Assembly: GCA_040954595.2 (NCBI GenBank)
Contig: CM082584.2
Span: 4,654,110-4,718,109, forward strand
Source of the DNA: Balanoglossus misakiensis
Taxonomy: Eukaryota > Animalia > Hemichordata
Direction of reading: 5' to 3'
Length of the DNA: 64,000 nucleotides
A model generated the notes under the pieces. It was not told the DNA's origin. It saw only the letters and a list, made by a program, of their open reading frames with translations, and made no database searches. Shown piece after piece: positions 23,641-48,486 of this stretch (position 1 is the first letter of the stretch; each line of letters begins with the position of its first letter). The position numbers and the translations under genes are program-made.

Positions 23641-23860
23641 GGTGGAATCGCCATAGGAACAGACTAGACAGTGTCGATATGTTGATTCTATGTGGTGGTA
23701 ACACAATTGGATATATGTGGAACCTGTATGGTGGCATCACCATGGGGACAACCATTTTCGATGTGTGGAGTCTACGTGTGGGGGTAACACCATTGGATGT
23801 GTGGACCATATGTGCTGGCATCACCATGGAGATAGACTCTGTCGATGTGTGGACCCTATG
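23641..23860. repeat. Degenerate minisatellite, about 85-bp unit, about 2.5 copies
   Basis: Recurring ggcatcaccatgg...tcgatgtgtgga...ggtaacac.attggat blocks. Confidence 0.65.
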
Positions 23861-26495: not shown

Positions 26496-26590
26496 AGGTA
26501 TACGATCACCTGTGCAAATAGAGCTACAATTACCATGGCAAATTTAGATCTGGCCAATCACAGATTTTCAGTGGATGGCACTCGCGAAAA
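26496..26590 (+). mobile_element. 5' end of a longer member of the same Kolobok-like family (right end not identified)
   Basis: TTAA|AGGTATACGATCACCT...CCAATCACAGATTTTCAGTGG...CGCGAAAA matches 52392-52486. Confidence 0.7.
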
Positions 26591-29500
26591 AAAAGAAAAT
26601 GATCTTAACTAAAATTTCTCACCAAATTGCGATTTTTCCATTTCGGTGTTTTGAGGGTTACTGTGATCTATGCTGTTACGACACACCCTGTTAAGTTCCT
26701 TGGGGTAGCTTTAATTTTTCTTTGCATAACAAAAGGCCCTAAACAGTTCAACTAGTTCATTTAAATATTAGTTAACCAGATGGTCACCCATATAAAATGC
26801 ATTCTCACAAAAACCACGAGGAACACTTCTCAACACTGCCTGGGAGGAGCACGTCACTCCACATCGCCTTGGGAATTTGGAATCTAACTAGCTATGGCTG
26901 GTCTGGACTTCATGAGCAATGGACTTTCTGTGAGCAACGGACTAGTGTGAGCAACTGGCTTATGTGCCTTGGTGAAGCTTGAGTTCGGCCAGGACTTTTG
27001 TGGACTCAATAGTAACTCCTCGACCAAGCAGGGTAAAAACACATAGAACAGTTTTTTCTGTGAGACCTTTTGATTTCAGAAAGCTAATTGTTCAATTAAA
27101 TATTCTGTTGTTGAACTACAAACTCCATTGTGTGCTCCCGGTTTTTTCTACCGTAACAATGCACTTCAGTTTGCAAGAGTCTTAATTGTAGGTTTAAAAG
27201 TCGCGAAAACGCACAAACTGTCAGTCATAGTCCAGCGTGGTTGAATTACAAAAATCAACGTCATTTATCAAGACTTTGATGAAAAATGAATATAAAGCAA
27301 CAAGTATGTGAGACCCATCCAGCTGCAGTCATATGAATTGGGTGAAGTGGATGTATGGCAAATCCTTCTAGCTGTCATATTAATCGGGTGACATATATTG
27401 TTGTTGTAATCTAAACCACAGACATCAATCTATGTATCATTGAAAAATATTGGCAGTTAATGCTCTTTTTTATAATATGCACAAAGTACTTTGACATTAA
27501 TAAGATTCTAATTGATTATTTGAGATGGTATAGTCGCCCACAACCTCCCTTCCCAACTGGGTTAGCCACTTACAGCGTGTTTACTTCACGTAGGCTGAAT
27601 TCCGGTTTACAATTCAACGTTTCTTACTGAGAATAAATTCGTGACTTCCAATATCTGATGTAGTTGTGTCTATCTAGTTGTGTCTTCACGCTTCTTGGTG
27701 GCAAAGGCCAAATGGTGCGTCTCTTTTACAACTACCCTCTTTCAAGTAACACTTCCATTGCGGCACGTTACACATTTTTACGGTCACGTGTGTATTCCTG
27801 GTTGATTTCATGACGGGAAATATTTGCTTGAGAGATATTAGTCAATGAAGCTTATGGGCTTCGCGGGGAATGTCAGAAGATCGTGTCGAGGTGGAATGAA
27901 TGTTAATGGCGTCCAAGAAGCAACGTGAGGTAGACGAATGACCAAACGACACCCAATGAACGACAGCTGCTCACTCTCCCAACAGAGCGTGCCAAGAGAC
28001 AAAGTTATACAATATGCATTGTTTCCAACATCTGGTCAAAATAATGATCTATCTGTAGTACGCGTGTCGAGCGGGATATCATTAACAGAATTTTAAATCG
28101 AAACAGACGTCGTCATCAATCATTCTGAGAATGTTACGCTCAACAAAGTAGCCCTCTCGGGCCAGTTTTATTTGTCGTGCGCATACCAATCTTTAGATGG
28201 CGTTCGCCGCTGTGTGTAATATTCGGATGCAAACGGTATACACTATTATGTTTTCCCCGCATTAAGGGGTGAACCATTTGACAAATTGTTGTACCCCAGC
28301 CTCCACCTTGCAGACGCCAAGGATATCACCTTCTAAGAACTTCCCGAGTTCAATTCTTGATCCATTATGTGTGAATGCATAAACTCGACTGTATACTCAG
28401 ATGTATACCCATTCCTCTAAACGTGAAAACTTGCTGACCAACGAATTCGTATTCGATAAACACATTTACGTTTATTGAAAAAAATACAAAATGTGTGTTG
28501 ATTTCATAGAGTTTATGACACTGAAGAAATTATATGTTAGTCTCACGTTTAACATTAGAAAAATCATTTGTCTAAAAGCTTTCACACGACACAGCCTTAT
28601 TAGTTTCGATGACGGCTATAGCTGTAGTCGACATCTTTCCCATCATTTGAGCGATCCCACACGAATTCAGGTCAACGTATTGACAATGAAATGTCTTTAC
28701 TTACCTTTGATTTACTGGTAAAATTAGAGACCTAGCAAGCTCAGGTACTAAAGCTGATTTGATTACAGCGAATAAAGACTTCGTCAGTCACAATCACCTT
28801 CTAATTTCAAGGCTATTCATGATTTTACAACCCGGCGATTTAAGTAGGAAGGGGGTGGTATGTACGGAGTAGAGTACAAGTGCACTTTCTCCTTTCGGAA
28901 AACCATCAATATCAATTCCTCGACAAGTTAATTAAATAAGTGCATTAGATTCCAGATTAAGAACATTTAAAGGGCAGGCGTAGTGTTCTTGTTTAAAAAA
29001 AATCATTGTTTTAATTTATTTTGTTACGGTGCATTGTTAGCCAGGCGTGTACCTTCTGAAATGCCTATGGGATACTGTGACCTATTTCACTGTTCTCTGT
29101 CACACAAACTTCTGCACTACAACTAGTACAACTTAATTAAGCCTTGAACTTGGCACTAGTGACGCATTTCAACACAGATGTTAAAAGTTTCGCATGGCCC
29201 ATTTCGACTCGTTTCTGTAATAATAATAGCATTGGGTATATGTATATATAACATTACATTTCAATGTTTTGCAAAGAACGCGCTATATACAGTATGCACC
29301 TTCACATTGCATATAGACAGTTCCATTGATTGATAAAAATAGTCGTACACGGTAAAGATCGATGCCTGCTGATTTTTGTCTGCCAATTAATGGCGGCTGC
29401 TGATATTTCTATACGTACGTGTAGACAGTCTGCATGGCCGTACAAACAACAAAGTATTTACCAAGCAACATATGGCATACTTCTTTTGGTGTGTACACAT

Positions 29501-30867
29501 CTCTCTTGTTTTTAGGTTGAGGCTGCATGCGTATGTATACCTTTAATTAAAATTGAACACTGTAGGTAAAACTGAAAGGTTTATACCTTGACGGTGTGAA
29601 TTGGCAGCTGATGTCACTAACCACCAGGAAATAGAGGTCATGCGATAAAGCAATTAATATTTACGTTTGGGCTTTCTATGAATTATTCAACTTTCTAGTC
29701 CTGATTGGAGTCACCACAGATGACCTTTGATCCAGAATACTAAGACTCAAATCCGGATTGTACCCTCGGTACATTTAAACTGATAAGTCAAAACGTACTT
29801 ATATCTGCTCTTCGATTGTAACAAACAAAATTAACACATAGGCCTATAACGTGTGAACTGAACCGCGTTTGCCTACATTATGTCATATTTGGCCAGTAAA
29901 TGCCAGAACACTTGTAATGTTTACTGATAGCAACAGTCTGGATAAGAAAACACATTTTAAATATGACAGATGCAGATTGCACACACAATAGATATAGACG
30001 AGACTATGATTATTTATGATTATGTTACACAGTAATGTAGCGTTAAACTCTCTCTCTCTCGTTATATACTGGTACAATGTATATATGATTGATTTTATGG
30101 ATTGTAGACCATAATTTGTTGTGAACACTTATTATTGAACTACGTTTGTGCAGGAGGGCTTTGGCGGTTTGCTGCGTTGACAACTTCGCTATGTTAATCA
30201 GTATAATAGCTTTTAGTAGAAGTCCTCTCCTGAAGGTGAATTAATCGCATAGATTACCAACAAATGAGATCCAAAATAATACTGTAAGCATCGTTAAACA
30301 ATAAATGGGCTAATTTGCATTTGGAATCTACCTGAAGACAATATAACAGAAATATGATATAATAGAAATATACTATTAGTTATACATGAGTATCTTTATA
30401 ACCCGTCTGAGTATCCACAGGATTAATGGACCTTATTACATATAACTTATTCTGCCAACAGTTCCGTCTTTCATTGCTGAGTACGGCAATTATTTTGTAA
30501 AACTAATCACAGATTTCAAGTATCGTTTTTAATGGTATACTAAACTCTCCATTAGAGCACTCGTCCGTGATCTCTGTTGACCTCTTAATACAACCCAATG
30601 TTTATGATGCACACTATGCTGGCTTTACTGTCATCATTATTTTTTCATTTTTCTGACTATTCTCAGAAGGTGAATTTAAAAGAAACATACTAATGTTCAT
30701 GTCCATACTTGGTAATCAATGTTCACAGACATTTATAATGCCAGTAATTCTGTTTACAATTCAGAATAGTTGTATTTGTCCTATTTAACCATTCTACAGC
30801 AATCTTAGTGGGAGTTGTGGTTTACAAATGACAATCATTTAATATTCCGCAGCAAGCCGAGTCAATT

Positions 30868-30924
30868 AAACAAACAAACAAACAAACAAACAAACAAACA
30901 AACAAATAAACAAACAAACAAACA
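30868..30924. repeat. (AAAC)n microsatellite
   Basis: Direct reading. Confidence 0.95.
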
Positions 30925-32515
30925 AGACGAAAAACAGACAAACAAACAATTCTTTGCGTGGTCAATATCAATATTGAATCCGTTCTTGTAAGGCAATAAT
31001 GGTAGGAGTGTTAAATTTGCGCTTCAAAACCATTTGTAATTTTTCTGTCTGAGTAGACAATCAGATAACTTCGATTCTATATTTTCAACAGGAACGTACG
31101 TTTGGTGCGTACGCGTAATATAGGTGATGGTAGGAACATTATTTCAGGTCCCGAAGAAAGTATCCGAACACTAGGTTTTTGAGTCTGCTTTTTGTCAGAA
31201 ATTCCCACATTCACTATGTGTTTGTTTACAAACACTAATTCAAGAAAATTGCACTGTCCACTGTTAATCCCGCTCAATGTAAGTCACACGGATGAATCTG
31301 TCATGTTGTGTGCGAGATCGATTTTTCATCTCCACACATTGTGCATGTAATGTGTGTAGAGTATAAAATGAGAATCGTCTGATGCATAAAGCGTTGGATA
31401 GATTCGGTGTAGCTAATGAGGCGCGTGATACAAAATTCGCTTTCTGCAGATAAATATTGACGCTTGTGTTCAATACAGGCCACAATAATAATAGGTCAAC
31501 CGACATAGAAGCATCCTTTGATTTTTAAACTGTATGCTACTATTCACTATTTCTGACAGCCTTCGTAGCCATTTTACCGTTGCCCATTATCGCTTATAAT
31601 TGCTCTCACATGTTCTAATTTTATGACTTATCGCTTGAGTGAAAACACACATTTCAAAGTTAAAGGCCATTTTCTATACAAGCCCAGCTTCTACGACTTA
31701 TTTCATGTTAAATGATATTTTCCAAATAAGGGCTTGTGGTTTCACGTCATGTTTTCCAGTGAGCATGAGGAGTAGAAATTCTTCACAACACCTCTATTTG
31801 TGATGAAAGTCATCTTGGAAACACGGATGGTTTACATTTGTCGTTCGATTACCAATTGTCGTGTACTGGTTACACATATCACTCTAAAGTTTTTGATGCT
31901 TGGGACGCGTCCAATGCGTTGAGTCTGAACGCATTTGACGCGTTACATGTGTTCAGTTACTGAACTCATGTGTTCAGAAATATCATTAATGTGTTCAACC
32001 GTTTACCGCTACCATTCTACCACCAATTTTAATGTCTGTTTTTATTCAGACAGCATTAATTTGTATGTCAAACATGTCAATATTTCTTTTAACATGTTTT
32101 TATGACCAACAGTCCCCTTCTTAAACCAACTACACAGAAGAACACATTTAGTTTGACCCATATAATATACATATGTGTACGAGTGAACACAATAATGCAA
32201 TCAAATGTATGTTTTGGCCTTTCCGAATGTTTTCATGCACATTGCTTCAGAGAAAAATGCCGTAAATGTCTTTGATCTTTTTACTTAAACGTAAACAGTC
32301 AGGATAAAACACTAATCGAAAAGTGGCGTTCAATTTGTGAATGCTAGTGTCCTAACATGACACAAAAACAGAACACTGGCGTTGCCCATTTCCAAAGATG
32401 GGTAATCCAGATGGCGGGCATGCGCACATCAGATGCAAGTTAGGCGCCATTTCTGTCTGACGATATTTCTATGCTGCGGTTTCCGGATCACTGGACTGTC
32501 GCATTTGTAGCGTTT

Positions 32516-32803
32516 TGTTCCACTTTTGACATAAAACTGGCCACACGCCTGTAGACTGCTGCCGTAAGTATTGTCGTGGCAGAATGCCATTGAATATTGG
32601 CACGGTGGAGGTCCACGAGTAGTACGTTTCATCCTTCAAAATGCAATTGTACTTTTCCTCAAAGAAGTGATCATTTTTTCTGTAGCTATCAATTTCATTT
32701 GTCCTCAAGAAAATTGTATTTGTCATTTAGTTGATTAAAATGTTGACATTCATTCATGTATATGCGTGAATGTGTCTTATTTTTCTCCATACAATGTCGG
32801 TAA
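32516..32803 (+). repeat. 288-bp direct repeat, copy 1 (copy 2 at 41088-41375)
   Basis: Colinear match with scattered substitutions only; also visible as the two near-identical MTNTI(F/Y)LRTNEIDSYRK ORFs. Confidence 0.95.
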
Positions 32804-32813
32804 AAACAATAAG

Positions 32814-33520
32814 AATTAATGAACTGACTAACTTGCACCGCATTTCTATTGACAAGCCCTCACTCGCCCTGTCCGAGCAAATATTTACTTCGACCTTCTT
32901 TCAATAAAAAAAATTCAAAATCAGATTTCCCACAATGCAAAATAACGAGCAAACCCACACTCTGATGCTAACAACACTGCTGTCAATGATAATAATTAAT
33001 CAACTGAGTAACTGGCACCGCATTTCTATTGACAAGCCCTCACTCGCCCTGTCCGAGCAAATATTCACTTCGACCTTCTTTCAATAAAAAAAATTCAAAA
33101 TCAGATTTCCCACAATGCAAAATAACGAGCAAACCCACACTCTGATGCTAACAACACTGCTGTCAATGATAATAATTAATCAACTGAGTAACTGGCACCG
33201 CATTTCTATTGACAAGCCCTCACTCGCCCTGTCCGAGCAAATATTCACTTCGACCTTCTTTCAATAAAAACAATTCAAAATCAGATTTCCCACAATGCAA
33301 AATAACGAGCAAACCCACACTCTGATGCTAACAACACTGCTGTCAATGATAATAATTAATCAACTGAGTAACTGGCACCGCATTTCTATTGACAAGCCCT
33401 CACTCGCCCTGTCCGAGCAAATATTCACTTCGACCTTCTTTCAATAAAAAAAATTCAAAATTAGATTTCCCACAATGCAAAATAACGAACAAACCCACAC
33501 TCTGATGCTAAAAACAATAA
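32814..33520. repeat. Tandem array, 180-bp unit, about 3.9 near-identical copies
   Basis: Sequence recurs at exact 180-bp offsets (lines beginning 32821, 33001, 33181, 33361). Confidence 0.97.
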
Positions 33521-33606
33521 TAATTCAATAATGTCTAGTTTTTCAGCATAACCATTGTGTTACAAGACATCGGTATTTCATTGTTATATATATTCCAAAA
33601 ATATTT

Positions 33607-33755
33607 GGAAAGTTCTAGAAGGTCATTCAAATGTCAAGATGGAATTGATAAGACCGTGTTAGAACATTCGTGAAGTTTTAGAAGTTTTTAGATATGATAT
33701 ATATATCTTATTTTTATCAATAGATGTCATAGTTATTTTTAGAATTGACTATAAA
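33607..33755 (+). promoter_or_regulatory. Two perfect three-unit heat-shock elements plus TATA box upstream of the nested IgSF gene
   Basis: gGAAagTTCtaGAAg at 33607-33621 and aGAAcaTTCgtGAAg at 33661-33675 both match nGAAnnTTCnnGAAn. TATAAA at 33750-33755, about 280 bp before the ATG. Confidence 0.6.
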
Positions 33756-34030
33756 TTCTGGGAGTCTGGAACCTTGAGCGATTGTAGCAGCAGAGTGAAT
33801 ATAAGTTCACTGGTGTTTTAACGGTGAAGACTTGCTATTGCGATAGCCTGTGTGTTTCCTTTAGTGTTACACCAACCAATATAAAAGAACCTGGAGGTCA
33901 CTACGTTGTGGTGGTCTGCGAATCTACTCCTGACGACAGTGCAACGCTTGTATTGTGACGCACTGGCAAAATCGTAAATGGACAATAACTGGTAAATGGA
34001 TAGTTTCGGCATTGGTGAAGAGGTTTTAAC

Positions 34031-34094
34031 ATGCGACTAAAGGTTTCCGTGGTCCTGTTTATATTGTTAAATGTGTTTACTTATCAACTTCAAG
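34031..34094 (+). CDS. Nested Ig-superfamily type I membrane protein, exon 1 (signal peptide)
   Basis: ATG at 34031; MRLKVSVVLFILLNVFTYQLQ followed by G|gtgagt donor, phase 1. Confidence 0.8.
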
Positions 34095-34327
34095 GTGAGT
34101 TTTATATCCTTATGGACGAGTTAATTCAAATAATGTCTTGAAGAACATGAAATTTGAGGGAAATGGAACACAATCATTCATTCATTTCTCCATTCATTGA
34201 GTCGGTGGTTGCTTAAATGGTTGCTTAAACAAGGCAAATATGATATATGCGCATTGTTACCTTCTATTCGGCCTATAAGAAATTCTGCACCATATTCATC
34301 TGGCATGTTTGTTGTTTAATTTTGCAG

Positions 34328-34633
34328 GACAGCAAAATGTGTATGTGCAATCTGGTCATAGACAAGTCGTACAAGGTGATAACGTCATATTGGAGTGCAA
34401 GCTCAACAGTGCAGGGTCAGCGCCTCCACAATGGAATTACATCAAAAAAGGGGAAATTGCTAATATTGCCGAAGGGAGTTCAATATTCAATGACTGCTGT
34501 CAACTATACGAGAAAGATGGATATTATAACTTGCAGATTCATAGTATTGATGTAGACAAACACGAAGGTACTTGGCAATGCACTCAAATAGACGTGACTC
34601 CACAAAACAAGAATACTTATCTAGAGATTATGG
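34328..34633 (+). CDS. Nested IgSF gene exon 2 (V/I-set Ig domain)
   Basis: Acceptor tttgcag| and donor G|gtaagt; phase 1-1, 306 nt. Ig hallmarks GDNVILEC...PPQW...YNLQIHSIDVDKHEGTWQC. Confidence 0.9.
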
Positions 34634-35162
34634 GTAAGTGGTTAACAGCCTGAGTGCAATCGACTCTTTTAGAATTGCAAAGAAACTGTCAAAGACACAT
34701 CAGAGGAATAGTTAGCAAATCAAAAGTAGAACAATCGAGAAACCACATTATTTAGAGAGAAAGAAAAAAATGTACAAATGGTATAGGTTTATATTTCGAG
34801 AACTGGGTTAATAAACATATTATTTTTGTAAATTGTATCCTTGATAGACATGCAACATTTTGAAAATATAACAAATTATTTGAAAGATAAATCTAATTTA
34901 ATTCTGAAATTGTAAATTTTAGGATGCTTCCATAATCATGTAAAGATTTTTAATTAAATAACAACAGTAAAAAAGTGCAAACATCAAGTCGAAAAGTGCA
35001 AGAAAAAACACTATTTTTGTTTTCTATGTGCCTACAGTAAGAAAAAAATAGTGTCAACATTTCCAAATGTTTACAAGTAATAATTGTTGTGGTGATCACC
35101 GCAAGAATGTTGGGGAACAGAGGAGTTAATTAGAACATGACCACTTAATCTTCTTATGCTAG

Positions 35163-35471
35163 TTCATGTCGCCAGTGTGAGGATATCTGAAGATCAGAAC
35201 TACACATTTACATGTGTAGCCGAAAGGGGCAAACCGGCAGCTACGTTTCATTGGATTTTGAACAAGACAGTAACTGAGGATGAAGGGGAAGTAGTGGCTA
35301 CCTATAGTAATGGAACCGCAGACAGCATGAGCAATTACAGTATTTTCACCTTCAATATAAGTAACTGTGGTGACCAGGACATCACCAATCTGACATGCAA
35401 AGCTGTTCAGTCATCTCCATTAGTAGGAACCAAGCTTGCCACCACGACAGTCTGTCTGAACAGGCCCCCAG
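35163..35471 (+). CDS. Nested IgSF gene exon 3 (C2-like Ig domain, many N-glycosylation sequons)
   Basis: Acceptor atgctag| and donor G|gtatgt; phase 1-1, 309 nt. YTFTCVAERGKPAATFHW...NLTCKA; sequons NYT, NKT, NGT, NYS, NIS, NLT. Confidence 0.88.
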
Positions 35472-35870
35472 GTATGTCAAACTTTCCTCCCTCATAGTTC
35501 AAAATGGCCTATAGGCCTATCATAAGCAATCTGGTCTTGATAGGTCAACTTATCAGAAATTGATTGGCTGAGCAAGTTCAGATAATTATCATTGGTATTA
35601 CATGGTCCACTGTTTGATTACATTAACATATGTGACAACTTTAGTCAATTTGTATCCTTGCATATGAAGTCAACCACTTCCTGTCATTCTGCTCTGTTTG
35701 TGGGAGATTAATAAACACTTTAGCGCTAGTGATCAGTCATTTTGTGAATTTATAAGCACCATTTTCTCACTGGTTCGGTGATTGGCATGGTTTACTCAGG
35801 AACGCAGATGATGCATCAACTTCAATGATATTATTTATCGAATTTACATTAGTGGTTTGGTTTTACCCAG

Positions 35871-36050
35871 ATCATGGTGATACCACAGTTAGCACACTAC
35901 CTGCAACGAACGTTGGTTTAATCATCGGCATACTACTAATCGCCAGCATCGCCATCGCCATCGCCATCGCCATCATCGTGATAATTATTAAGAATCCAAG
36001 AAAATGTCAATCTTTGCGAAGCAAGTATTTTACAACTCCAAGCAATCAAG
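35871..36050 (+). CDS. Nested IgSF gene exon 4 (stalk, transmembrane helix, basic stop-transfer)
   Basis: Acceptor ttttacccag| and donor G|gtaaga; phase 1-1, 180 nt. VGLIIGILLIASIAIAIAIAIIVIII followed by KNPRK. Confidence 0.87.
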
Positions 36051-36592
36051 GTAAGAGACAAATACCTGGTTAGTAACATAGCTGATGTTATTTGTGCATT
36101 ATTATACACAACAAGATATCTTGCCTTATTTTGAATATACTGTGCTGTTGGTGTTTTGGAATTTATATTTGACAAGATGAGTATAATGTTGAAATTACAA
36201 GATTGACAGGAGCAATATTAGAAGGGGGTACCAGAAACTATAGCAACGACAGCTTAATCTTCTCAACCTCCATGCTGTAAAGGTACGGACATTGCCACAA
36301 AGCAAAGACTTAGGGCGAAATCTGGAAAATCTGTGCAACAAGAATTGTGGATAAACAACGTTACCATCCCTGACACATACTACTCGTTAGGAAAGTTTTA
36401 TTGACAGTCCAACCCCAAGCATACTTGCTTAGACTCTAATAAGGAACATCATAGGGGACATAATGGAAACACAAATAAATACTATAACAATAGAATCAAG
36501 AAGTGATCACAGAAAACAACACTGATTTACACAACACATGCATGCAATGGTGTGCCAGCATTTTGAATTTGCTTTTGTGATGTGTTTCACAG

Positions 36593-36612
36593 ATGAACCT
36601 GTAGCAGTATAG
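36593..36612 (+). CDS. Nested IgSF gene, probable last coding exon (DEPVAV*)
   Basis: Acceptor tgtttcacag| in phase 1 reaches TAG at 36610-36612, giving a 292-aa protein. An alternative acceptor at 37048 (ENVLR*) is also possible. Confidence 0.5.
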
Positions 36613-37087
36613 GAATAAGAAGAGATGCAACGATACGAGAAGTAAGGTGTGTTAAGAGATGGGCCTTAGTCCATCTTTTTCCGCTGTCTTCTGTGTGGCT
36701 GAGGACTAAACATATCTGACCAATTACAAAAAGGGATATTATTATACGTTACTACTCTCACTAGCCATGACATTTCATATTATTCACACGAAAAATAAAT
36801 ACAATTGTTAATTTGCTTAGATATGGGGGACTTGTCAGACTACAATAAGGACCCTTTTGTCTTAAAACCATAAAGACGCTGTTTGAGATAACTCCTAGTA
36901 ATGTGCCAAATATATATGTTAAGCATGACCACTTCCTTCTGTTTCTTTAAGTATTATTGAATTGTCCACATCGTCATTTTTAATTTTTGGCCATAGTAAT
37001 TACCCAATACTAAGTTATTTCATAACTTTTCTTTACTTACTTTACAGAAAACGTACTGAGATAATGCCTTCTGATTCTGAGCTCACG

Positions 37088-38764
37088 ACTGCCTGCACTT
37101 GTGTGGCAAAATAAAATTTGACATAGTTTGAACTTGCTTTAGAGGCATTTTCACTCCAAGTCACTGCCAACTATTAATTCATGTTTCACATACTTCGTAG
37201 CATGCTTGTGCTTTTTCGATAGATAGAATCAGACTGCCAAGTGTTTATTCAAACTGAAATACATTACACTGCCTGTACTTGTGTGGCAAAATTAAGAGTA
37301 AAATATGACATAGTTTGAACTTGCTTTAGAAGCTTTATTCAGTCCAAGTTACTGCCAACTATTAATTCCTGTTTCACATTCTTCGAACCATGCTTGTGTT
37401 TTTTCGATAGATAGAATCAGACTGCCAAGTGTTTATTCAAACTGAAATATATTACACTGCCTGTACTTGTGTGGCAAAATTAAGAGTAAAATATGACATA
37501 GTTTGAACTTGCTTTAGAAGCTTTATTCAGTCCAAGTTACTGCCAACTATTAATTCCTGTTTCACATTCTTCGAACCATGCTTGTGTTTTTTCGATAGAT
37601 AGAATCAGACTGCCAAGTGTTTATTCAAACTGAAATATATTACACTGCCTGTACTTGTGTGGCAAAATTAAGAGTAAAATATGACATAGTTTGAACTTGC
37701 TTTAGAAGCTTTATTCAGTCCAAGTTACTGCCAACTATTAATTCCTGTTTCACATTCTTCGAACCATGCTTGTGTTTTTTCGATAGATAGAATCAGACTG
37801 CCAAGTGTTTATTCAAACTGAAATATATTACACTGCCTGTACTTGTGTGGCAAAATTAAGAGTAAAATATGACATAGTTTGAACTTGCTTTAGAAGCTTT
37901 ATTCAGTCCAAGTTACTGCCAACTATTAATTCCTGTTTCACATTCTTCGAACCATGCTTGTGTTTTTTCGATAGATAGAATCAGACTGCCAAGTGTTTAT
38001 TCAAACTGAAATATATTACACTGCCTGTACTTGTGTGGCAAAATTAAGAGTAAAATATGACATAGTTTGAACTTGCTTTAGAAGCTTTATTCAGTCCAAG
38101 TTACTGCCAACTATTAATTCCTGTTTCACATTCTTCGAACCATGCTTGTGTTTTTTCGATAGATAGAATCAGACTGCCAAGTGTTTATTCAAACTGAAAT
38201 ATATTACACTGCCTGTACTTGTGTGGCAAAATTAAGAGTAAAATATGACATAGTTTGAACTTGCTTTAGAAGCTTTATTCAGTCCAAGTTACTGCCAACT
38301 ATTAATTCCTGTTTCACATTCTTCGAACCATGCTTGTGTTTTTCGATAGATAGAATCAGACTGCCAAGTGTTTATTCAAACTGAAATATATTACACTGCC
38401 TGTACTTGTGTGGCAAAATTAAGAGTAAAATATGACATAGTTTGAACTTGCTTTAGAAGCTTTATTCAGTCCAAGTTACTGCCAACTATTAATTCCTGTT
38501 TCACATTCTTCGAACCATGCTTGTGTCTTTTCGATAGATAGAATCAGACTGCCAAGTGTTTATTCAAACTGAAATATATTACACTGCCTGTACTTGTGTG
38601 GCAAAATTAAGAGTAAATATGACATAGTTTGAACTTGCTTTATAGAAGCTTTATTCAGTCCAAGTTACTGCCAACTATTAATTCCTGTTTCACATTCTTC
38701 GAACCATGCTTGTGTTTTTTCGATAGATAGAATCAGACTGCCAAGTGTTTATTCAAACTGAAAT
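37088..38764. repeat. Tandem array, about 188-bp unit, 9 copies
   Basis: ACTGCCTG(T/C)ACTTGTGTGGCAAAA starts at 37088, 37268, 37456, 37644, 37832, 38020, 38208, 38395 and 38583. Internal copies are nearly identical; the first is more diverged. Confidence 0.97.
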
Positions 38765-39255
38765 TAAATACTAGACTCATGCAGGCTAAGTTAATCTATC
38801 CGACCATTTTCCTTTGGCTCTATTAGGTAGGAAAGAATTTAAATTATAAACTTAAACGGAGTTTTAGTCAGAGTTTCACCTTATGTAGTATTTAGTGTCC
38901 CTCATTGCATTAACAATTTGAATCAAAGCATACTCATGTAGTTGTTCAAGTGAAATTATTGACAAACCATTTTGTACACCAATCATTGTCTTTTAACATG
39001 GTCCAATTGTCTTGTCGCAAACTAAAGGTTGGACGTATTTTGGCCCATTTTGGCTTAGTATGTTTTATCATTTTTAAATTAGTATGTTTTATATAGTATA
39101 GCTGGTTGAGTGTATTTTAGTTTATATTGTTCATTTATTGGCACTTGTGTTTTCTCTGTAATTTATTAAGTTTTATTGAGTGATTTTCTTGTTTGCTATT
39201 AAAACCCATTACTTCTACCTCAATCCAGTGTGGTGTGTTCACAAATGAATTGTTA

Positions 39256-39793
39256 ACATCGTCACTTTTGATTTTTGGCCATAATAATTAACCCATACTA
39301 AGTTATTTTATAACTTTTCTTTACTTACTTTACAGAAAACGTACTGAGATAATGCCTTCTGATTCTGAGCTCACGACTGCCTGCACTTGTGTGGCAAAAT
39401 AAAATATGACATAGTTTGAACTTGCTTTAGAGGCTTTTTTCACTCAAAATCACTGCCAACTATTAATTCCTGTTTCACATTCTTCGAAACATGCTTGTGT
39501 TTTTCCGATAGATAGAATCAGACTGCCAAGTGTTTATTCATCAAACTGAAATATATTACTAGACTCATGTAAGTTAATCTATCCTACCATTTTCTTTTGG
39601 CTCTATTAGGTAGGAAAGAATTTAAATTATAAACTTAAACGGAGTTTTAGTCAGAGGTTCACCTTATGTAGTATTTAGTGTCTCTCATTGCATTAACAAT
39701 TTGAATCAAAGCATACTCATGTAGTTGTTCAAGTGAAATTATTGACAAACCATTTTGTACACCAATCATTGTCTTTTAACATGGTCCAATTTG
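39256..39793 (+). repeat. Local duplicate of 36968-39010 containing a single unexpanded unit of the 188-bp repeat
   Basis: Same 5' flank (acatcgtca...ttacagaaaacgtactgagataatgcc), one repeat unit, and the same 3' flank (tactagactcatg...aacatggtccaat). Confidence 0.9.
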
Positions 39794-40710
39794 TCAATGG
39801 TATAACACGTCCAGCTTCGAATAGTTGTCTTGATCACATATATACAACTGATGCAGACAACTTTAAGAATACTTGTATAGCAGATATTTGTCTTTCTGAC
39901 CACTTGCCTGTGTTAACTCGTCGCAAACTAAAGGCTGGTCGTAATAATTCGAGTACCCATATTCATGTTCAGTATAGGTGTTTTAAAAATTTCGATAATG
40001 CAAGGTTCCTTCATGACTTACAGGGGAAATCCGCTGTAGCTGATTTCGACATAATTTGGTAGCTTTGATGTCTCTCTTTCAGAAAAAAACATATTCGCCA
40101 TGTGTAGGTCGCGCGATTTTTTTACAAAATCTAGGGAAAGTTGGCAATATGGCGTTTACTGTAATTTGAATCATGGGAAAAAAAGCGCCAGGAGCAACTT
40201 CCGCCCACCATGGTGTGGGTGATACCATTCTCCGATTGGTGTCACTGGTCGACAGACTAGGCGTATTTTCATAGCTATTGTTTGTTCTTTGCATCAGTTG
40301 ATAAACAATCATCAGCAAAGTCGAAAATTGTCATCTATTGACAGTTTTCATGAGCTATAACCCATGAAAAATATGCAAATACGCTTAGCTTGTGACACAG
40401 TGACACCAATCGGAAAATGGTATCACCCACACCAAGGTGGGCGGAAGTTGGTCCTGGCGCTTTTTTTCCCATGATTCAAATTACAGTAAACGCCATATTG
40501 GAAATTCTGCCAACTTTCCCTAGATTTTGTAAAAAATCGCGCGACCTATACATGGCGAATATGTTTTTTTCTGAAAGAGAGACATCAAAGCTACCAAATT
40601 ATGTAGAAATCAGCTACAGCGGATTTCCCCTTTAAATAATGCACCATGGTTCTTACTGAATTTTGAAAATGATGTCAATGTTATGTTTGAGAAATTTGAT
40701 AAACTTTAAA
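39740..40710 (+). pseudogene. Non-LTR retrotransposon (CR1/L2-like) ORF2 fragment, end of endonuclease domain, split by a MITE
   Basis: FNMVQFVNGITRPASNSCLDHIYT...LSDHLPV...YRCFKNFDNARFLHDL continues after the MITE as NNAPWFLLNFENDVNVMFEKF. LDH and SDH are APE endonuclease motifs. Confidence 0.85.
40022..40631. mobile_element. Kolobok-like MITE with about 225-bp TIRs inserted at a TTAA site
   Basis: AGGGGAAATCCGCTGTAGCTGATTTC... is mirrored by ...GAAATCAGCTACAGCGGATTTCCCCT. Flanks are TTAC and TTAA; removing the element restores the LINE reading frame. Confidence 0.85.
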
Positions 40711-41087
40711 ATCCTGTTAAGAGAGCATATTAAGAATAACGTCCCTCTGTAATTTGATTTGTGTTTTAAGGTATTTACTTTATTCAGTCAATTATTTATT
40801 TTTCTCCTTCTTGATTCTACTTTCTTGTATTGTATGTAGATCTAATTCACTCTCAAATGTTTATAATGTGTTGTCATCCAGTAGAATGTTAAAAACGGTG
40901 ACGTGATCATTTCCTAAAAATGCCCTTGGTTCATACAGGCAGGTTGGAAATGTTCAAGTAAAAACTAAAACAGTTTTATCAGGAACGTCATATTTCTTCT
41001 TGTGGTAAGACTTTATCTCAAGTTTAGTCAATGAATAGTTGTGTCCTTTACTGCATAATGTAAAAGTTTTGAGCATGCTTTCAGGAA

Positions 41088-41375
41088 TGTTCAACTTTTG
41101 ACATAAAACTGGCCACACGCCTGTGGACTGCTGCCGTAAGTATTGTCGTGGCAGAATTTCATTGAATATTGGCACCGTGGAGGTCCACGAGTGGTACGTT
41201 TCATCCTTCAAAATGCAATTGTACTTTTCCTCATAGAAGTGATCATTTTTTCTGTAGCTATCAATTTCATTTGTCCTCAAGTAAATTGTATTTGTCATTT
41301 AGTTGATTAAAATGTTGACATTCATTCATGTATATGCGTGAATGTGTCTTATTTTTCTCTATACAATGTCGGTAA
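41088..41375 (+). repeat. 288-bp direct repeat, copy 2
   Basis: Matches 32516-32803. Confidence 0.95.
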
Positions 41376-42064
41376 TGTTGTCTGCTTTATAGAACACATG
41401 CATTCTATTTGCTTAGTTTGAACACTTAGGCTATGTTCAAAAAGTGTTACATTGGATTGACGCGTAATTAGTGTGAAGACACTATGTGTTCAATATCTGA
41501 ACACATGCGTTCTAGTTTTCGTACTGAACACTTGTACGTTCAAAAAGTGTTACCAATTATGTGTTCTAATATGTGTTCAATCGCTGAACGCTTCACTTTA
41601 GAGTGAACTGTGATTTGAATGCATAGACAAAGACGAAATTACCAAGAGTGGGACACAACGCATCTTTCTATTGTGGCAATGTGGGTTTTTGCTGATTGTA
41701 ATTACTGCATTGGTTTTATTTTAGTAACCTTGACATGCTGGCATGTTATACTCATAGAGTTATCAGTCGATCGTTTAATGAATAACAGACGTTAACCATA
41801 TAGTTAAAACTATAAATATTTAACTTGGTCCCCATTGTACAACTTTCATGTGACTGAAACGGCGCGAAAAAAAGCTTGGTATTATATGTCCCGATTAGTG
41901 CATTCAAATAAATACTCTGGATATGGCGTCCAAAACGTTTAAACTTAGAATATATATAATAATAATCCGTTGCCTATGATGACAAACAACAAGAGCAATC
42001 GTGTTAAGAAAGCCTAAGTACGATAGATTATTCACATTTTGTGTTCAAGTCGAACCCGTTGTTA

Positions 42065-42510
42065 GGCTGCAAACACCTCAGGGGGGGGGGGGGGAGAATT
42101 CAAATTTTCTTACCGTTAATTTTGACATGCCCCCATACACAACCCGAAATATTTTCAAATCCCCCATCCAAACTGCTAAAATTTTGAAATCCCCCCCATT
42201 TTCTTTCACACAGCAAAACACATCACCTATCTATCTTGTAAAAAAAGAAAAACAGCGCTCCCATGAAAAGAATTTGAAACTGATGTTTCCCCTCATCAGT
42301 GGGTATTAAAACTGAGAAAAAATTGTATTAGGAAGGGTTCAAAACTGCATTTTTGTGGACTCAAAATAAATATTTAGTCCTCAAAGTTTTCAAGTCCCCC
42401 CTTTCAGTCCCTAAATAATTTCAAATCCCCCCTTACATTCCCTCAATTTTTTTCAAATCCCCCCTCAATTCTCCCGCCCTCCCCCTCCAGAGGTGTTTGT
42501 GAATGCAGCT
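42065..42510. mobile_element. Degenerate Harbinger-like MITE
   Basis: TTA|GGCTGC-AAACACCTC-G-run at the left end versus C-run-GAGGTGTTTGTGAATGCAGCT|TTA at the right; internal repeated TTTCAAATCCCCC motifs. Confidence 0.6.
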
Positions 42511-43054
42511 TTATTGCCGACAAAACGTGTTGACCACTTTAAGACCATGGATGTGTTCGCAGAAAATGTATGAAAAGTTAACGTTATTAAAAAGGGTTTT
42601 GGATGCAAAAGGACAAGCAAGATAGGGAAGTTATTTCTGATCAGTTTAGGTGATCTGAATGTATACGTGTGCAGGCCTACCTTATATCTCGTACTGGTCG
42701 GTTTGATCCCCCTTTCCACTCAGTTATCCTGGTAACACACACACTGTCATCAAATAAAGGATGTTAGCTTACACACAGTAATGGCAAGACATGCCAGCGC
42801 TATCCAACATGTGGTATAATCCAACAGGGTATGGAAAACAGTAATTTCCATCCGCGTGAAAAAAATAAACGGCATTTGAAAAATAAACTGACTAGACGGG
42901 GTACGCTACTTGACCCCTAACCCCTATTTCAGTCGACCAATGTGCAAGTAACGCCATACGTGAAGCTATTTGACTTGTTTGGAGTTTTTGAGTTTCTGAC
43001 ATGTATCGTCTTTTTAAAATGTCTAAAAATCCCTCCAAACTTTAATGGTAGATG

Positions 43055-43265
<211 letters not shown>

Positions 43266-46200
43266 TTTACTTTTTATATTTTCAAACGCAGTATCTGAAC
43301 AATATTTAAGAAACAAATGACGTCACATACTGACTTGTGTAATTTTTCGGTGCCCTCTTCGGCTGCAGTAACATGTTTAAATCAACTATGTTATGATTCA
43401 GGTTTTGGTGCAATGTCATCGTTACATTGTGTTTTATCATCAGACCAGCTTGCAACTCATGCGAAGCAATTCCAGCAATTTACAGCTTATTGAATTCAGT
43501 ACCGGTGAAACAGTGAATCTCCAAATAAATAAGTATAGATAGGCAGCATCACAACAACGTAGTAAGTTATTAAATAGGTGGTGAGGTTTACCCAAATTAC
43601 TCCTCACCCCAGAATTAACAGTTCAGGCTCCTTTTAGATGACACATACACAAAAATTTAAAGGATGCAAAGCTATGTATTTACCATCCAAATTCAAAACT
43701 TCCATTTAACCTCATTTCTAACGTTTATAGTGATGGTTTATACCACCATGTGTCAGCTCAGCATGAATTCAATTGAGTTTCTGAGTGTTCTCATGACACT
43801 GTGTTGTAATGTCGAATACAAACCTATGTAGAGACAACTAAATGGTGGTATAGTGCAGCCGCTAGTTGAATCGTCGAAAAGTAGGACAGCGCGCATTTGA
43901 ATCATCGCAGTTCAAACGTAGCAAAATGGGGAGATGGTGCTGATCTGATATGTTTATTTCGGTTTTAATGGCAATGAACTCTTAGATACGACAAGTAATA
44001 TCCTATTTGTTAATATGGTCCGGTGACACATAATAGGAGGTAGTAATACAATGCACAATATTGGTCCTATTGATCGAGCTGATATATGCGTTGATCTGTG
44101 TTGTATATGACACTGTTACATGTATGTCTATACACGCATAAAATCACATCCATCGCACAAAACTGTATCAGTGCACCAATGTACATCTGTTGCTCAAAAT
44201 AACAGTCATCTGTGGACTTAGAGTTAATATAGGGCTGACTCATTCGCCCCACTCTTCGATTGTACTGTGTATTGAACGGCTGCAGAGGCGGGGGTTGAGG
44301 TCATAATTACAGAAACAGTCAGCTCACACGTGCACATCATGTAGGTGGTTGTGGTCGTTGTGATAATGCTTTAATCTTGCTCAGGTGGTTGCGAGCCAGC
44401 CTGCACATTTGCTGGTTAGTAACATCTTCAACCAAATTTGGCAAAGGATGGGTTAAATTCAAAAATCTTCTTTTTACGTTAAAAAAAAACCTACTCGGAT
44501 TAGAGGACAAACATTGAATATACATGTCCAATCTAGAGTTTACCTACATCTGAATAAATAATAATAATCAAAATTGGTTAATTCCTGACCACGCTGCCAG
44601 GGCACATCGACGCCAGTTAATGCCATCAGGCTCATATCTGTATCAATAGTCACGACAAAAATAGCCTATATCCAGGATATGGGTATACACGCTGTCACAC
44701 GCTTCAAAACTCTCTATATAAAACTTGTTTATTTATAGTCGACCATTATATATTGGAACTAATGCTGTAGGCTATTTATAACAGCCTGATGGTCAGCCGA
44801 AAGTTACAGTTCATAACGGTAATTTTAAACGGCAAAGACGCTGTCCGGTTTTCTCAATTATCACAAGAAAATTGATTTGTTCGTCTTACACTGGAATGTT
44901 AAGTTACCAGTTACCCCCAAAGAATACGATATTTCTTGTGAAATTGACTCCTCGGTTTTACCTATGTATTCATGACTGTTCTGAGAAGAACACACGCAGT
45001 GACGTCAACAGTGGAAGACATCTCAACAAATACGAGAAAATGAACAACCATTACTAGACAATACCCAAAATAACAGTCATAACAATACGCCGTATCTGTC
45101 CACTTAATAGCTCTGTGTGAAACGTAGTGTTTAACCGTTTCATACCACTATCTTTTCCATTAAAAGCGATTGACATTTTATGGTAAATTTAGGTCGTAAA
45201 TAATACATCATTTGACACTATTCTACGCGGTCCAGTTCAACTCTAAATGATTTAATTCCGCTCTAATATAAAAATAGTTATCAATTTAACAATCTAATTC
45301 TACACAGTCACGATTCAATCCAACTCGAATTTCATATAATTCTGCTAAAAAAACTAATCTAATTTTACTATACGTTTAATTCTGCACATTTCCAAGTAAC
45401 TGTATGTGAGTACCAGCTGTAAACAGGCTCGATGACACCATATAAATCTCAAATGTCGTAATCATTTTCAGAACTTATTATAATATTTTGAAAATAGCGC
45501 TAAATGTCGCTGCAGCGCGCTGGCGAATATTTTTTGTACAGATTAAAGTAATTGCAGTGACGTATTTTAAGTCACGCGAGGCATTATCGCATTGTGTCAG
45601 TGTGAGACATATTAATGTCACACTGGGATTAGTTTAATTTCAAAGTAATTCTTTATAACAACAAAAGACGATCCATGCAGTGAAATTGTTCTCTCTGTTT
45701 GCAATATATTTCCATCATAAAATGCATTGCCAATACCAATATCAGCTAATAAAAGTTCCTAGTAGACACATATTTTTAGGGGGTTCTTGTATTTAGTTTT
45801 ATAGATATTGATCTCATAGAGATGGCATTGGCTATGAGACATTTAACTGCTAATTTGTACAGATATTGCTTTAATTCTGGAGTTATTGAACACAGTTTGT
45901 GAAACTTGCTGGAGATACTGATTTCATAAAGATATCACAATAAAGGAGATTGGTTGTATTGGAAGATAGTGGTTAGTTTCATGACAATGTATTGCTATTA
46001 TTTGCAGATCTTTAGCTATCATCAACCCACGTACACACCGTGAGCAAACTGGTTGTTTGATTGTAGTGCTTCCCAGTGCGCACATGTTGGTTAGGAGTGA
46101 CATGACCTTTGCACTAACAGTGTTTCAGTTGTGTTCAGCTGCGACAAATACGAAACCTAATGATTCCAAACCACAAAAGCTCAATCACTCATCACAATGA

Positions 46201-46611
46201 CACTGTACCATCCTCGATAATCCAGGAATACATCCTCAGAAAAATTTCAACTTTTTTTTCTATTAATCGGTATTTATTTTGTTTAAGTTTTCCACGCGCA
46301 TTTTGGGACAGACAGGGTCAAGGCAATGTATTGGTACCGGCGACTATGTGGTTCAAGGTTCCAGGCCAGCCTTTTAAAAGCGGTTATCGCCTATTGAATG
46401 CCAGACTAGCGTGAATTACTTAACCAGATTGCAGAACAACTCAAATCGACTTAGTACCGCCTGTACACACCACAACTCCCTAAAACGATTGGTCATCCAT
46501 AAAATTCGTACACCACTGTGTCTGCTGGCATAACGTCTATGCGCTAACGATAAACTTATGAAAACATCGTAGTATTCTGAAATATCCAATGAAATCATGT
46601 TCGAATACTTA

Positions 46612-48486
46612 GGCCAAAGTAAGTAAATTCTTTGTTTTGCGTCCCCGCGCGCGTAGGTTTTCGGGCTTTTTTGAGAAAAATAACACAAAACTCATTTGCA
46701 TAAATTTCCAATCCACGGCGGTATTTTGTCGAAAAAAATGACATTTCAACAAATGCCACTTTACGGCAGTCCTATTCTAATCATGGTGTGACGTAAAACG
46801 GTACGCCCTACAGCAACTGCGCATGCTCGTAGTTGAAGTCTGTCAACACACGCTGCTGGCTGCACGCGTCATGTCGCCGCGCATCTCCTCTGTCTGCTGG
46901 GAAAGCCAGGGATCCCCGTGATTTAACATGAATGAAGCCAACGAATAAGTCGTCCTTAAGGTTACGGAAAAAGATAAAACTATCCTTGACTAGTTCAGGA
47001 TGGAAGTGACCGACGCGCAAAACTTTGCACGGCTACTGGAAGCCATGGTGAATGTACCATAAAGCCGGCCAGACAGTGTTTCAGTCGCCGATCGTCACCA
47101 CCTCGTCTACCAAAGGATGTTTTTCACCTTTTGTGCGACCCATACCCAGGTAACTAATTTATCTTAGTAGAGAAAACTTTTATATTCAAGCCAGAACACA
47201 ATAATCTTTGTTGCTGTTTGATCACAGGGGGCTCTTCCTCCGCGATTTTGTTTGTTGTTATTGATTGGCATAATAAATAAATATGGTCACGTTTGTTGAC
47301 ATGCAAGGTATACTAGTATTCAACGGTCAGGGTTAGGGTGTACGTGTATTCAATGGTTAGAGTAAGTGTTGGCATTTTTTCGATCCATGGCACTCCCACC
47401 TGACCGTTGAATACACCGTGACCCTAACCCTGACCGTTGAATATTATACCTAACATGTCAACAGACAAACGTGACCATATTTATTTATTATGCCAATCAA
47501 TAACAACAACAAACAAACAAACAAAATCGCGGAGGGAGAGCCCCCTGTGGTTTGATTTCTGTCTTTTAAATCCAGTCACATGTTTTTTTGATTTTGTTAG
47601 ATGTTTTCCTGGACAGTTTTTAAATATATTCATAAAGTGTGAAACAGTTATATTTGTCACATTTTATTTTCAAATATTTGATATTTAAAATTCATTTCAT
47701 TTTTGATTTTTAGATCTAGGTCCAACAGATGGTGAGCATTACAAATCGTTCTGTCAGTGAAATGGTACTAGAGAAAGGGAGCATTTAAAGGGGGGGGGGG
47801 GGTAAGCAAAAGAAAATTCTATGGTGGTAGATCAGTAAAAATAGGTGGTGGGACTGTGAAGTTCAGTGAATGTAGAACATTTGTGTTTATTGCAATACAG
47901 TCATATTTTAAGATTGAAAATTATCATCTCATGGGTTGGCATATGCATCATACTTCGTAGTGAGATGTTATCACTATACTCAAGCATGTTTTCGTATTTT
48001 GTTTACAGAATTTTCAAAAACATTTCTTCGCAGAAATGTTTCATCGTGATCAACCAAACTTGGCAGATGGAAGTTTCTCCACATTACTACAGTGCCAGAT
48101 TGAATAGTCCTGATGTTTGATATGTTTGTGGGTCAGGAATCATCTCATCCCTATTACACCGGATATGAGGGAACAGTACCAGTCTATCCAGCCAGTCTGC
48201 AGAACTTGTAGAGACAGTGGCCACATTCAGCACACAAATAAGAAATCTAAAACTCGTAAAAGAAAAGCAAATTACAGATTAAAGGCTACAAATGACATTG
48301 TATTTTGATCATATTGTAGTAGTGTGTCACACTACTACATAAATGTGCATATTGCACGAGAAAAACTCTGAAATAAAGGCAAACTAATTTTGTGTTATTT
48401 TTTGTGTGTGTGTTTTTTGACCGCTTACCCTCGTACCTTTTAGAATTTTGAGTGGACGCAAAACAAAGAATTTACTTACTTTGGCC
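46612..48486. mobile_element. PIF/Harbinger-like non-autonomous element (1.9 kb)
   Basis: Perfect 33-bp TIR GGCCAAAGTAAGTAAATTCTTTGTTTTGCGTCC; TTA TSD at 46609-46611 and 48487-48489. Confidence 0.88.
47223..47549. mobile_element. Fold-back MITE with 7-bp TSD (P-superfamily-like) nested in the Harbinger-like element
   Basis: CACAGGGGGCTCT termini with long inverted arms; TSD GTTTGAT at 47216-47222 and 47550-47556. Confidence 0.8.

What the first reader, a model, noticed from the sequence alone, without database searches (positions are those of the whole stretch)
31880..41605. CACTA/EnSpm-bounded 9.7-kb cassette carrying a whole spliced Ig-superfamily receptor gene inside a GluN3 intron
Seen: 11-bp TIRs beginning CACTC (12 bp if the adjacent T/A pair is counted). 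Clusters of TGTGTTCA/TGAACAC-type motifs in both orientations lie within about 120-220 bp of each end, and no transposase is recognisable. Between the ends are a promoter-like region, a 5-exon open IgSF gene, two tandem arrays and a duplicated exon-like segment. Known: CAC termini, short TIRs, subterminal repeat clusters and internal tandem arrays characterise CACTA/EnSpm (CMC) elements, and host-sequence capture by such elements is documented mainly in plants and mostly as fragments. Inference: this is an animal Pack-CACTA-like unit that may mobilise a complete cell-surface receptor gene with its own promoter, a possible route for immune or adhesion receptor expansion. Caveat: the 2-bp flanks differ (AT vs AA).
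Basis: partly seen in the sequence, partly recalled or inferred. Interest (0 to 1): 0.85.

Follow-up and report, generated by a model that had tools for sequence, protein, structure and literature searches.

The report
Ig receptor between two transposon halves
In an acorn worm, an intact, multi-copy immunoglobulin-type receptor gene lies between the left half and the right half of a CACTA-like jumping element, a layout that likely arose when two neighbouring copies each lost their inner end and that could let the whole gene be moved, although no move has been shown.

Summary
The anatomy is real: 11-bp CACTC inverted ends, subterminal motif clusters and an open five-exon IgV-C2-transmembrane gene inside the 50-kb first intron of a hemichordate GluN3. 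Public contigs show that the left end is a multi-copy transposon terminus with other flanks, that the Ig gene has near-identical paralogues (introns included), and that both alleles carry the left end here, so no empty site was seen. A 288-bp segment occurs twice in direct orientation, so the unit reads as left half + 8.3 kb of other DNA + right half of a putative 1.15-kb element; this and the unlike flanks (AT/AA) match the 'hybrid' capture intermediate described for plant Pack-CACTA. The putative promoter is a solo LTR. Whether the paralogues sit inside the same ends could not be tested: no host genome is held and the contigs are short. Best reading: newborn hybrid, not shown to have moved (0.5); moved multi-copy Pack element (0.33). 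Whole-gene Pack-TIRs are known in animals (Ssk-FB4); my searches found no animal EnSpm case. The scan's index showed no look-alike on other DNA.

The parts
31880..31890 (+). left terminal inverted repeat (11 bp, starts CACTC)
   Evidence: 2 contigs from other sites are loose exactly before 31880
31880..32515 (+). left arm L of the putative non-autonomous element, with subterminal motif cluster (31926-31997) and a GC-richer stretch near 32370-32620
   Evidence: contig depth rises inside it
32516..32803 (+). segment X, first copy (288 bp); end of the left half
   Evidence: 97% to 41088-41375, 9 differences
32809..33516 (+). tandem array, 180 bp x 3.9; whether it belongs to the element or to the enclosed DNA is open
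   Evidence: depth
33558..33960 (+). solo LTR (403 bp, TGTTAC...GTGAC[G], flanks CATTG/CACTG) with TATAAAA at 33880; likely promoter of the Ig gene (inferred)
   Evidence: higher depth and loose ends with unlike flanks at both borders, other copies continue with A after 33959; flanks; TATA
34031..34094 (+). Ig gene exon 1 (ATG, predicted signal peptide)
34328..34633 (+). Ig gene exon 2, V-type Ig domain
   Evidence: Pfam Ig_3 E 1.5e-5, below curated cut-off; model pLDDT 79, TM about 0.8 to antibody light-chain V domains
35163..35471 (+). Ig gene exon 3, C2-type Ig domain
   Evidence: Pfam ig and C2-set_2 above cut-off; weak PDB hits axonin-1, nectins
35871..36050 (+). Ig gene exon 4, transmembrane helix and short tail
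   Evidence: hydropathy
36593..36612 (+). Ig gene exon 5 coding part, stop; ends V-A-V (class II PDZ-type end, recalled motif)
   Evidence: a contig of run X3 leaves exon 4 at 36050 into exon-5-like letters
36958..39791 (+). tandemly duplicated block (36958-39008 / 39246-39791) whose first copy holds the 188 bp x 8.8 array (37112-38764); likely 3' UTR region
   Evidence: X3 contigs at 37021-37241
39793..40730 (+). LINE endonuclease-like remnant (motif recalled; no Pfam hit) split by a palindromic insert at 40012-40641
41088..41375 (+). segment X, second copy; start of the right half
   Evidence: preceded by AA
41376..41605 (+). right arm R with subterminal motif cluster and right TIR (41595-41605)
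5711..56081 (-). first intron of the host GluN3 gene (context)

Best explanation
An intact immunoglobulin-type receptor gene lies between the left half and the right half of a multi-copy CACTA-like element, likely because two same-orientation copies of a short non-autonomous element landed on either side of the gene and each lost its inner end, leaving a newborn composite that a transposase supplied from elsewhere could move. Shown: the ends, the twice-present 288-bp segment, the open gene, other copies of the left end and of the gene. Inferred: a 1,154-bp parent (L 636 + X 288 + R 230), local hopping, complementary deletions, birth at this site (hence unlike flanks), and an LTR promoter. Untested: any move of the whole unit.
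For: Layout L-X ... X-R with no trace of L or R inside the 8,284 bp between. PMC6379663 (sections 17-18) describes this route for Arabidopsis Pack-CACTA: 27 of 28 neighbouring insertions in direct orientation, terminal deletions at both ends, and hybrids not yet relocated that carry different TSDs. Flanks differ here; the right half has AA on both sides (41086-41087 and 41606-41607), weak because AA is 10% of dinucleotides and the border is uncertain by a few bases. A variant X-to-R junction exists in other contigs of X1 and X2 (loose at 32783). In X2 summed depth falls from 1871 at the end of X to 362 in the array, and the main left-arm contigs (663, 667) exceed the whole array depth (362-401), so the commonest copy likely does not run into the enclosed DNA. 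In X1 the main left-arm contig (172) is deeper than the main Ig paralogue contigs (67-108). Both alleles carry the left end, X copies differ by 3% and the LTR's flanks by 1 of 5, so the structure is not brand new.
Against: The parent L-X-R was not seen whole in any contig. Contig depth is no copy number, a filter drops records (X1 holds 0.46 of the words), X2 looks like a ligation library with uneven depth, and in X1 the array depth (197-392) does not fall below the arm's. No second Ig copy lies in the 64-kb window while paralogues 93-98% alike exist elsewhere at about the same divergence as the main left-arm group (3-5%), which fits a unit that has moved. No AT follows the inner end of the left half. 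One mismatch in a 2-bp duplication can be a later mutation.
Confidence: 0.5

Rival explanations
1. The 9.7 kb is a true Pack element that was born elsewhere (by the same hybrid route or by template switching) and transposed into the GluN3 intron as one unit; one base of its 2-bp duplication has since mutated, and the Ig paralogues are further copies of the unit.
For: Dispersed Ig paralogues with introns, 93-98% alike, none in the window; left arm and gene have contig depths of the same order in X1 (170-410 and 70-310) and similar divergence from this copy; first base of the flanks agrees; both outer TIRs are perfect; in rice 17% of Pack-MULEs have unlike TSDs, so most have matching ones (PMC6379663); multi-copy animal Pack-TIRs lie far from their parent (PMC8277862 section 8).
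Against: No empty allele in this animal; depth drop at the end of X in X2; depth just upstream of the ATG (57.5 in X2 at 33994, 129 in X1 at 34006) is lower than in exon 1 (400, 358 at 34049), so most paralogues may not share this 5' region (may be the filter); a paralogous transcript-like contig has another exon before exon 4; at 3% divergence a mismatch in 2 bp is expected in roughly 6% of cases (my arithmetic).
Confidence: 0.33
2. One short element inserted here, later broke inside, and repair copied 8.3 kb from an Ig locus elsewhere into it, re-copying X (transposition-independent gap filling); the unit never moved.
For: The commonest route for single-copy animal Pack-TIRs (PMC8277862 section 8); short shared letters at both inner joints (TAA; TGTTC); paralogues exist as possible donors.
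Against: Gap filling leaves the TSD intact and usually removes a little element DNA (median 4.6%) rather than duplicating 288 bp; 56.9% of such cases have the parent within 15 kb, and none lies in this window; cargo is larger than that screen's 5-kb limit.
Confidence: 0.12
3. Two unrelated, decayed insertions of the same family happen to flank a resident nested gene; the pairing has no mechanistic meaning.
For: Unlike flanks; the intron is full of other repeats; an 11-bp CAC pair alone is common.
Against: The family is low-copy (one main contig at about 5 times haplotype depth in X1); two copies within 10 kb, in the same orientation, with complementary losses and perfect outer TIRs are unlikely without local hopping or capture.
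Confidence: 0.05

Closest known systems
Pack-CACTA hybrid intermediate of Arabidopsis and unlike-TSD Pack-MULEs of rice (Catoni et al., PMC6379663; passages and sections 17-18 read; PMC8903248 passages)
   Same: Two same-orientation halves with compatible outer ends around genic DNA; unlike TSDs; no transposase; short TIRs with asymmetric subterminal regions.
   Different: Animal host; CACTC rather than CACTA start; encloses a whole spliced gene in 8.3 kb (plant intervals recovered by PCR were 38-2137 bp); mobility not shown here.
Animal Pack-TIRs and Drosophila Ssk-FB4 (Tan et al., PMC8277862; abstract, sections 7, 8, 9, 14, supplement word search)
   Same: Near-complete intron-bearing gene for a membrane protein between TIR ends in an animal; paralogues elsewhere.
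   Different: Ssk-FB4 has long TIRs, 9-10-bp TSDs and three loci with distinct TSDs (proved moves); 87% of the 370 cases are hAT or TcMariner; 'EnSpm' and 'CMC' have 0 occurrences in the 12 supplementary files held, 'CACTA' one column head (files may be cut); the screen stopped at 5 kb of cargo.
Zebrafish non-autonomous CMC-EnSpm (EnSpm-N49/N49B; PMC13189230 passages) and the CMCT clade (PMC12730594 passages)
   Same: CACTC start, short TIR, no coding capacity.
   Different: There a clean 2-bp duplication (CA); here none; no autonomous partner identified.
V-C2-TM short-tail receptors of the CTX/JAM/nectin type (architecture recalled); hemichordate Ig proteins P0121, P0122, P0123, P0127
   Same: One V and one C2 domain, one TM helix, short tail with hydrophobic end; best V-domain hits are Ptychodera, Glandiceps and Saccoglossus proteins.
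   Different: Only 31-36% identity in the top three hits, no orthologue found; orthology with JAM or nectin not tested.

Membership tests
CACTA/EnSpm (CMC) | 5'-CAC...GTG-3' termini with short TIRs | tested here: met
CACTA/EnSpm (CMC) | clusters of short subterminal repeats in both orientations | tested here: met
CACTA/EnSpm (CMC) | 2-3-bp target site duplication | tested here: not met
   AT/AA, TAT/AAC; none at 2-9 bp. Expected to fail for an unmoved hybrid; other copies' TSDs not obtainable
CACTA/EnSpm (CMC) | CMC-type DDE transposase in the element or in an autonomous partner with the same TIR | not testable with these tools
   none in 89 frames; no host genome held
Pack-TYPE / Pack-TIR element | compatible TIR ends of one family enclosing non-TE genic DNA | tested here: met
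Pack-TYPE / Pack-TIR element | parental or paralogous copy of the cargo elsewhere in the genome | tested here: met
   several variant contigs over exons and introns; their location is unknown
Pack-TYPE / Pack-TIR element | moved as a unit: matching TSD, empty allele, or several loci with distinct TSDs | tested here: inconclusive
   TSD unlike; both alleles of one animal carry the left end (12 of 26 loose-end rows and 16 of 114 pieces shown); linkage in other copies not testable
Hybrid (composite) intermediate of Catoni et al. | two same-orientation truncated copies with complementary inner deletions and unlike TSDs | tested here: met
   L-X and X-R, no inner ends, unlike flanks
Hybrid (composite) intermediate of Catoni et al. 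| intact short parent element elsewhere; enclosed DNA resident before the insertions | tested here: inconclusive
   variant X-R junction and deep L contigs, no whole parent seen; orthologous intron not obtainable
Transib / RAG-like / Chapaev (other CAC-ended lineages) | their own TSD length (clade range 2-5 bp, PMC12730594) and transposase | tested here: inconclusive
   no 3-, 4- or 5-bp duplication; an unchecked scan note reports a CAC-ended RAG1-fold family with 3-bp TSD in this genome, TIR not compared
Solo LTR (33558-33960) | TG...CA ends, 4-6-bp TSD, multi-copy with sharp borders | tested here: met
   TG start, other copies end ...ACA, 5-bp flanks with 1 mismatch, loose ends at both borders; internal retrotransposon partner not sought

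The most novel reading that the evidence does not exclude
An animal EnSpm-type Pack element that has captured a complete, spliced and expressed IgV-C2 cell-surface receptor gene with an LTR promoter and has spread it through the acorn-worm genome, while the copies diverge in the ligand-facing C-C' region: transposition as the engine of a young recognition-receptor family, with this locus as its birthplace or one of its copies.
Probability: 0.35. Interest if true: 0.75.

Novelty: new variant of a known kind. Interest (0 to 1): 0.5.

Why it matters
Capture of full-length genes by TIR transposons is called exceptionally rare (PMC6431247 passage), and the hybrid route to Pack elements was worked out in plants. 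An animal locus with that intermediate's anatomy around a whole receptor gene would extend the model to a deuterostome and offers a direct test: with the host assembly, one BLAST shows whether Ig paralogues sit in the same ends. If they do, it gives a concrete mechanism for dispersing and diversifying invertebrate Ig receptors. If they do not, it is a single inert rearrangement of modest interest.

Tried and rejected
Exon 2 against the 5.8-billion-protein set, longer proteins only: 11 candidates, none significant. Exon 2 against PDB sequences: 0 hits. Rfam on 31000-42500: 0 hits. The sigma-70 promoter scan does not apply to an animal and found nothing. Run search: 3 runs of one sample, no RNA holder listed. 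X3 laid 0 records on the left end; no cover is no proof of absence. Scan look-ups by sequence for the left arm, the Ig gene and the right arm, by words and nearby: nothing. Paper searches without a matching animal EnSpm case; the library lacks most subscription journals and Repbase Reports. Rejected: X as an LTR pair (no TG...CA ends, no duplication at its borders); 12-bp TIR with T/A; 3- to 9-bp TSD; a hidden extra exon in intron 3 matching the other upstream exon seen in X3 (0 matches at 3 mismatches); the 37048 acceptor as last coding exon (possible in frame, but X3 holds a contig running through it unspliced, 37021-37117).
Full report
OBSERVATION. The ends are as described: an 11-bp perfect inverted repeat starting CACTC at 31880-31890 and 41595-41605, flanked by AT and AA. 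Such a pair alone is ordinary (16 CAC-led inverted 11-mer pairs in the window), but the subterminal clusters are not: an 8-mer taken from the left end alone occurs 8 times in the right 250 bp against 0.36 expected (P 5e-9), and the two ends are the two richest windows. No duplication of 2-9 bp flanks the unit. The five exons splice GT-AG into an open 292-aa frame: predicted signal peptide, V-type Ig, C2-type Ig, one transmembrane helix and a short tail. The first domain's model (pLDDT 79) matches antibody light-chain V domains at TM about 0.8. None of 89 frames scanned has a transposase family (repeat copies of the arrays were left out). The unit lies antisense in the 50.4-kb first intron of GluN3; the host is an enteropneust (exon 3: 81% to Ptychodera flava, 77% Glandiceps, 69% Saccoglossus).

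A 288-bp segment X occurs twice in direct orientation, at 32516-32803 and 41088-41375 (9 differences). The unit is therefore L(636)-X, 8,284 bp of other DNA, X-R(230). No remnant of L or R was found in between (one 22-bp hit, E 0.018). The enclosed DNA carries its own repeats: a 403-bp solo LTR 70 bp upstream of the ATG, a short repeat in intron 3, a duplicated block with the 188-bp array, and a LINE-like remnant (motif recalled, no Pfam hit) split by a 630-bp palindrome.

READ EVIDENCE, LEFT END. No host genome is held. Three runs of one sample hold the gene; they may be the window's own source, so they are not independent animals. On 30960-32985 (68, 39 and 0 records laid; 12 of 26 loose-end rows and 16 of 114 pieces shown) summed depth rises from 39-100 in the flank to 172-463 inside (X1) and from 27-349 to 657-3249 (X2). 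Two X1 contigs with unlike flanks are loose exactly before 31880, which fixes the terminus and rules against the 12-bp version. A contig identical to the window (31779-31925) and one with 10 differences (31538-31952, X2) both bridge the junction, so both alleles carry the left end; no loose end behind 31879 is among the rows shown. Contigs leave X at 32803 into the window's own R letters and at 32783 into a variant of them, so X joins R in at least one other copy (another locus or the second allele). In X2 depth drops from 1871 to 362 at the end of X; in X1 it does not drop (238 to 318), but four array units per allele add up there, and at 33462 the total (239) equals about seven haplotype units. 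These depths are rough: the tool says they are no copy number, a filter removes records, and X2's loose ends at GATC suggest a ligation library.

READ EVIDENCE, GENE. On 33345-37265 (251, 158 and 13 records) exons and introns are covered by several variant contigs 93-98% alike with depths 67-108 in X1 (one haplotype is about 34-55), and site 34049 differs in 6 contigs. The window holds no second copy, so the paralogues are elsewhere. Indels seen in coding parts are multiples of three (6 bases at 34084; 3 in the exon-2 contig; 9 in the exon-4 contig). In the one exon-2 paralogue contig (246 bases), 7 listed changes fall in codons 61-66 and all alter the residue, with a 3-base gap, while 5 of the 6 others are silent; codons 61-66 are model residues 39-44, the end of strand C, the turn and the start of C'. 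This is one pair, and gene conversion would give the same picture. 33558-33960 is a deeper, separate repeat with loose ends at both borders, TG start, an A after 33959 in other copies and 5-bp flanks with one mismatch: a solo LTR, holding TATAAAA at 33880. X3 is listed as 'DNA?', but it covers only the LTR, exon 2 (230 bases, 0 differences), the intron-3 repeat, exon 4 and 37021-37241, and one contig leaves exon 4 at its donor into exon-5-like letters ending in a stop. I infer that X3 is RNA and that the family, probably this copy too, is spliced and expressed; it is not on record as RNA.

MECHANISM. Catoni et al. (PMC6379663; passages and sections 17-18 read) saw Pack-CACTA copies insert next to each other in direct orientation (27 of 28) and lose either end, and proposed that complementary losses make a hybrid around the DNA between; unmoved hybrids carry different TSDs. 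This predicts each feature here: two halves, a shared internal stretch, no inner ends, unlike flanks. The AA on both sides of the right half fits weakly. I put this at 0.5. The same anatomy would be kept if the hybrid was born elsewhere and moved here, with one TSD base mutated; dispersed paralogues of similar age favour that (0.33). Gap filling into one element (PMC8277862 section 8) fits the short shared letters at the joints but not the 288-bp duplication or the missing nearby parent (0.12). Chance pairing is unlikely for a low-copy family (0.05). Birth here does not exclude later moves that made the paralogues.

COMPARISON. It works like a Pack-CACTA intermediate. Membership of EnSpm rests on ends only: CACTC and a short TIR as in zebrafish (PMC13189230 passages), but the TSD test fails at this site, and CA..TG ends with 2-5-bp TSDs are shared across the CMCT clade (PMC12730594 passages); an unchecked scan note reports another CAC-ended family in this genome. 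Gene capture by TIR elements in animals is in print: 370 Pack-TIRs, 4 multi-copy, and Ssk-FB4 with an almost complete gene (PMC8277862; abstract, sections 7-9 and 14). A word search of its 12 held supplementary files found no EnSpm or CMC entry (files may be cut). Eight paper searches gave no animal EnSpm element with a whole Ig gene; Repbase and most subscription journals are outside the library. The receptor's nearest relatives are hemichordate Ig proteins at 31-36% in the top three of 17 hits; its function, adhesion or immune recognition, is inferred from architecture only.

VERDICT. Observation confirmed; interpretation partly supported. A real, unusual locus: an animal case with the anatomy of a plant Pack-CACTA hybrid around a whole, likely expressed and diversifying Ig receptor gene. 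Movement of the unit, the claim that would make it striking, is open and can be settled with the host assembly. Interest 0.5; 0.75 if paralogues prove to lie in the same ends (probability 0.35).

Noticed in passing
window 33558-33960: Solo LTR with TATA box 70 bp upstream of the Ig start codon; its family also appears in the RNA-like run X3. Possible LTR-donated promoter.
   Followed up: partly
window 34437-34460 (exon 2, codons 58-66): A paralogue contig differs in a tight in-frame patch at the C-C' region of the V domain while other changes are mostly silent: possible diversifying ligand face.
   Followed up: partly
window 35870 (start of exon 4): An X3 contig joins a near-identical exon 4 to an upstream sequence that is not in the window: a paralogue with another membrane-proximal exon.
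   Followed up: partly
window 35947-35974: A 6-bp repeat (4.7 copies) encodes Ile-Ala repeats inside the transmembrane helix; a paralogue contig has a 9-base gap in this exon.
   Followed up: no
window about 35660-35718: Short high-copy repeat in intron 3 (16 contigs at one site, loose ends at both sides).
   Followed up: no
window 40012-40641: 630-bp palindromic insert (85% self-complementary) that splits a LINE endonuclease-like remnant.
   Followed up: no
window 16355-16617 / 22355-22512; 20633-21197; 42070-42499; 47223-47549; 46611-48487: Other inverted-repeat elements in the same intron; 16460-16617 and 22355-22512 are 91% inverted arms about 6 kb apart and include a CAC-led 11-mer pair (16507/22465).
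   Followed up: no
window 5711-56081 and 61022-63506: GluN3 has a 50.4-kb first intron at the position matching the P. flava protein; an ankyrin-repeat gene (with RCC1-like exon, recalled; IBTK-like) starts head-to-head within 5 kb.
   Followed up: no
window 30960-31952: The two alleles differ by about 2-7% in intronic flank, a high heterozygosity that blurs allele and paralogue.
   Followed up: partly
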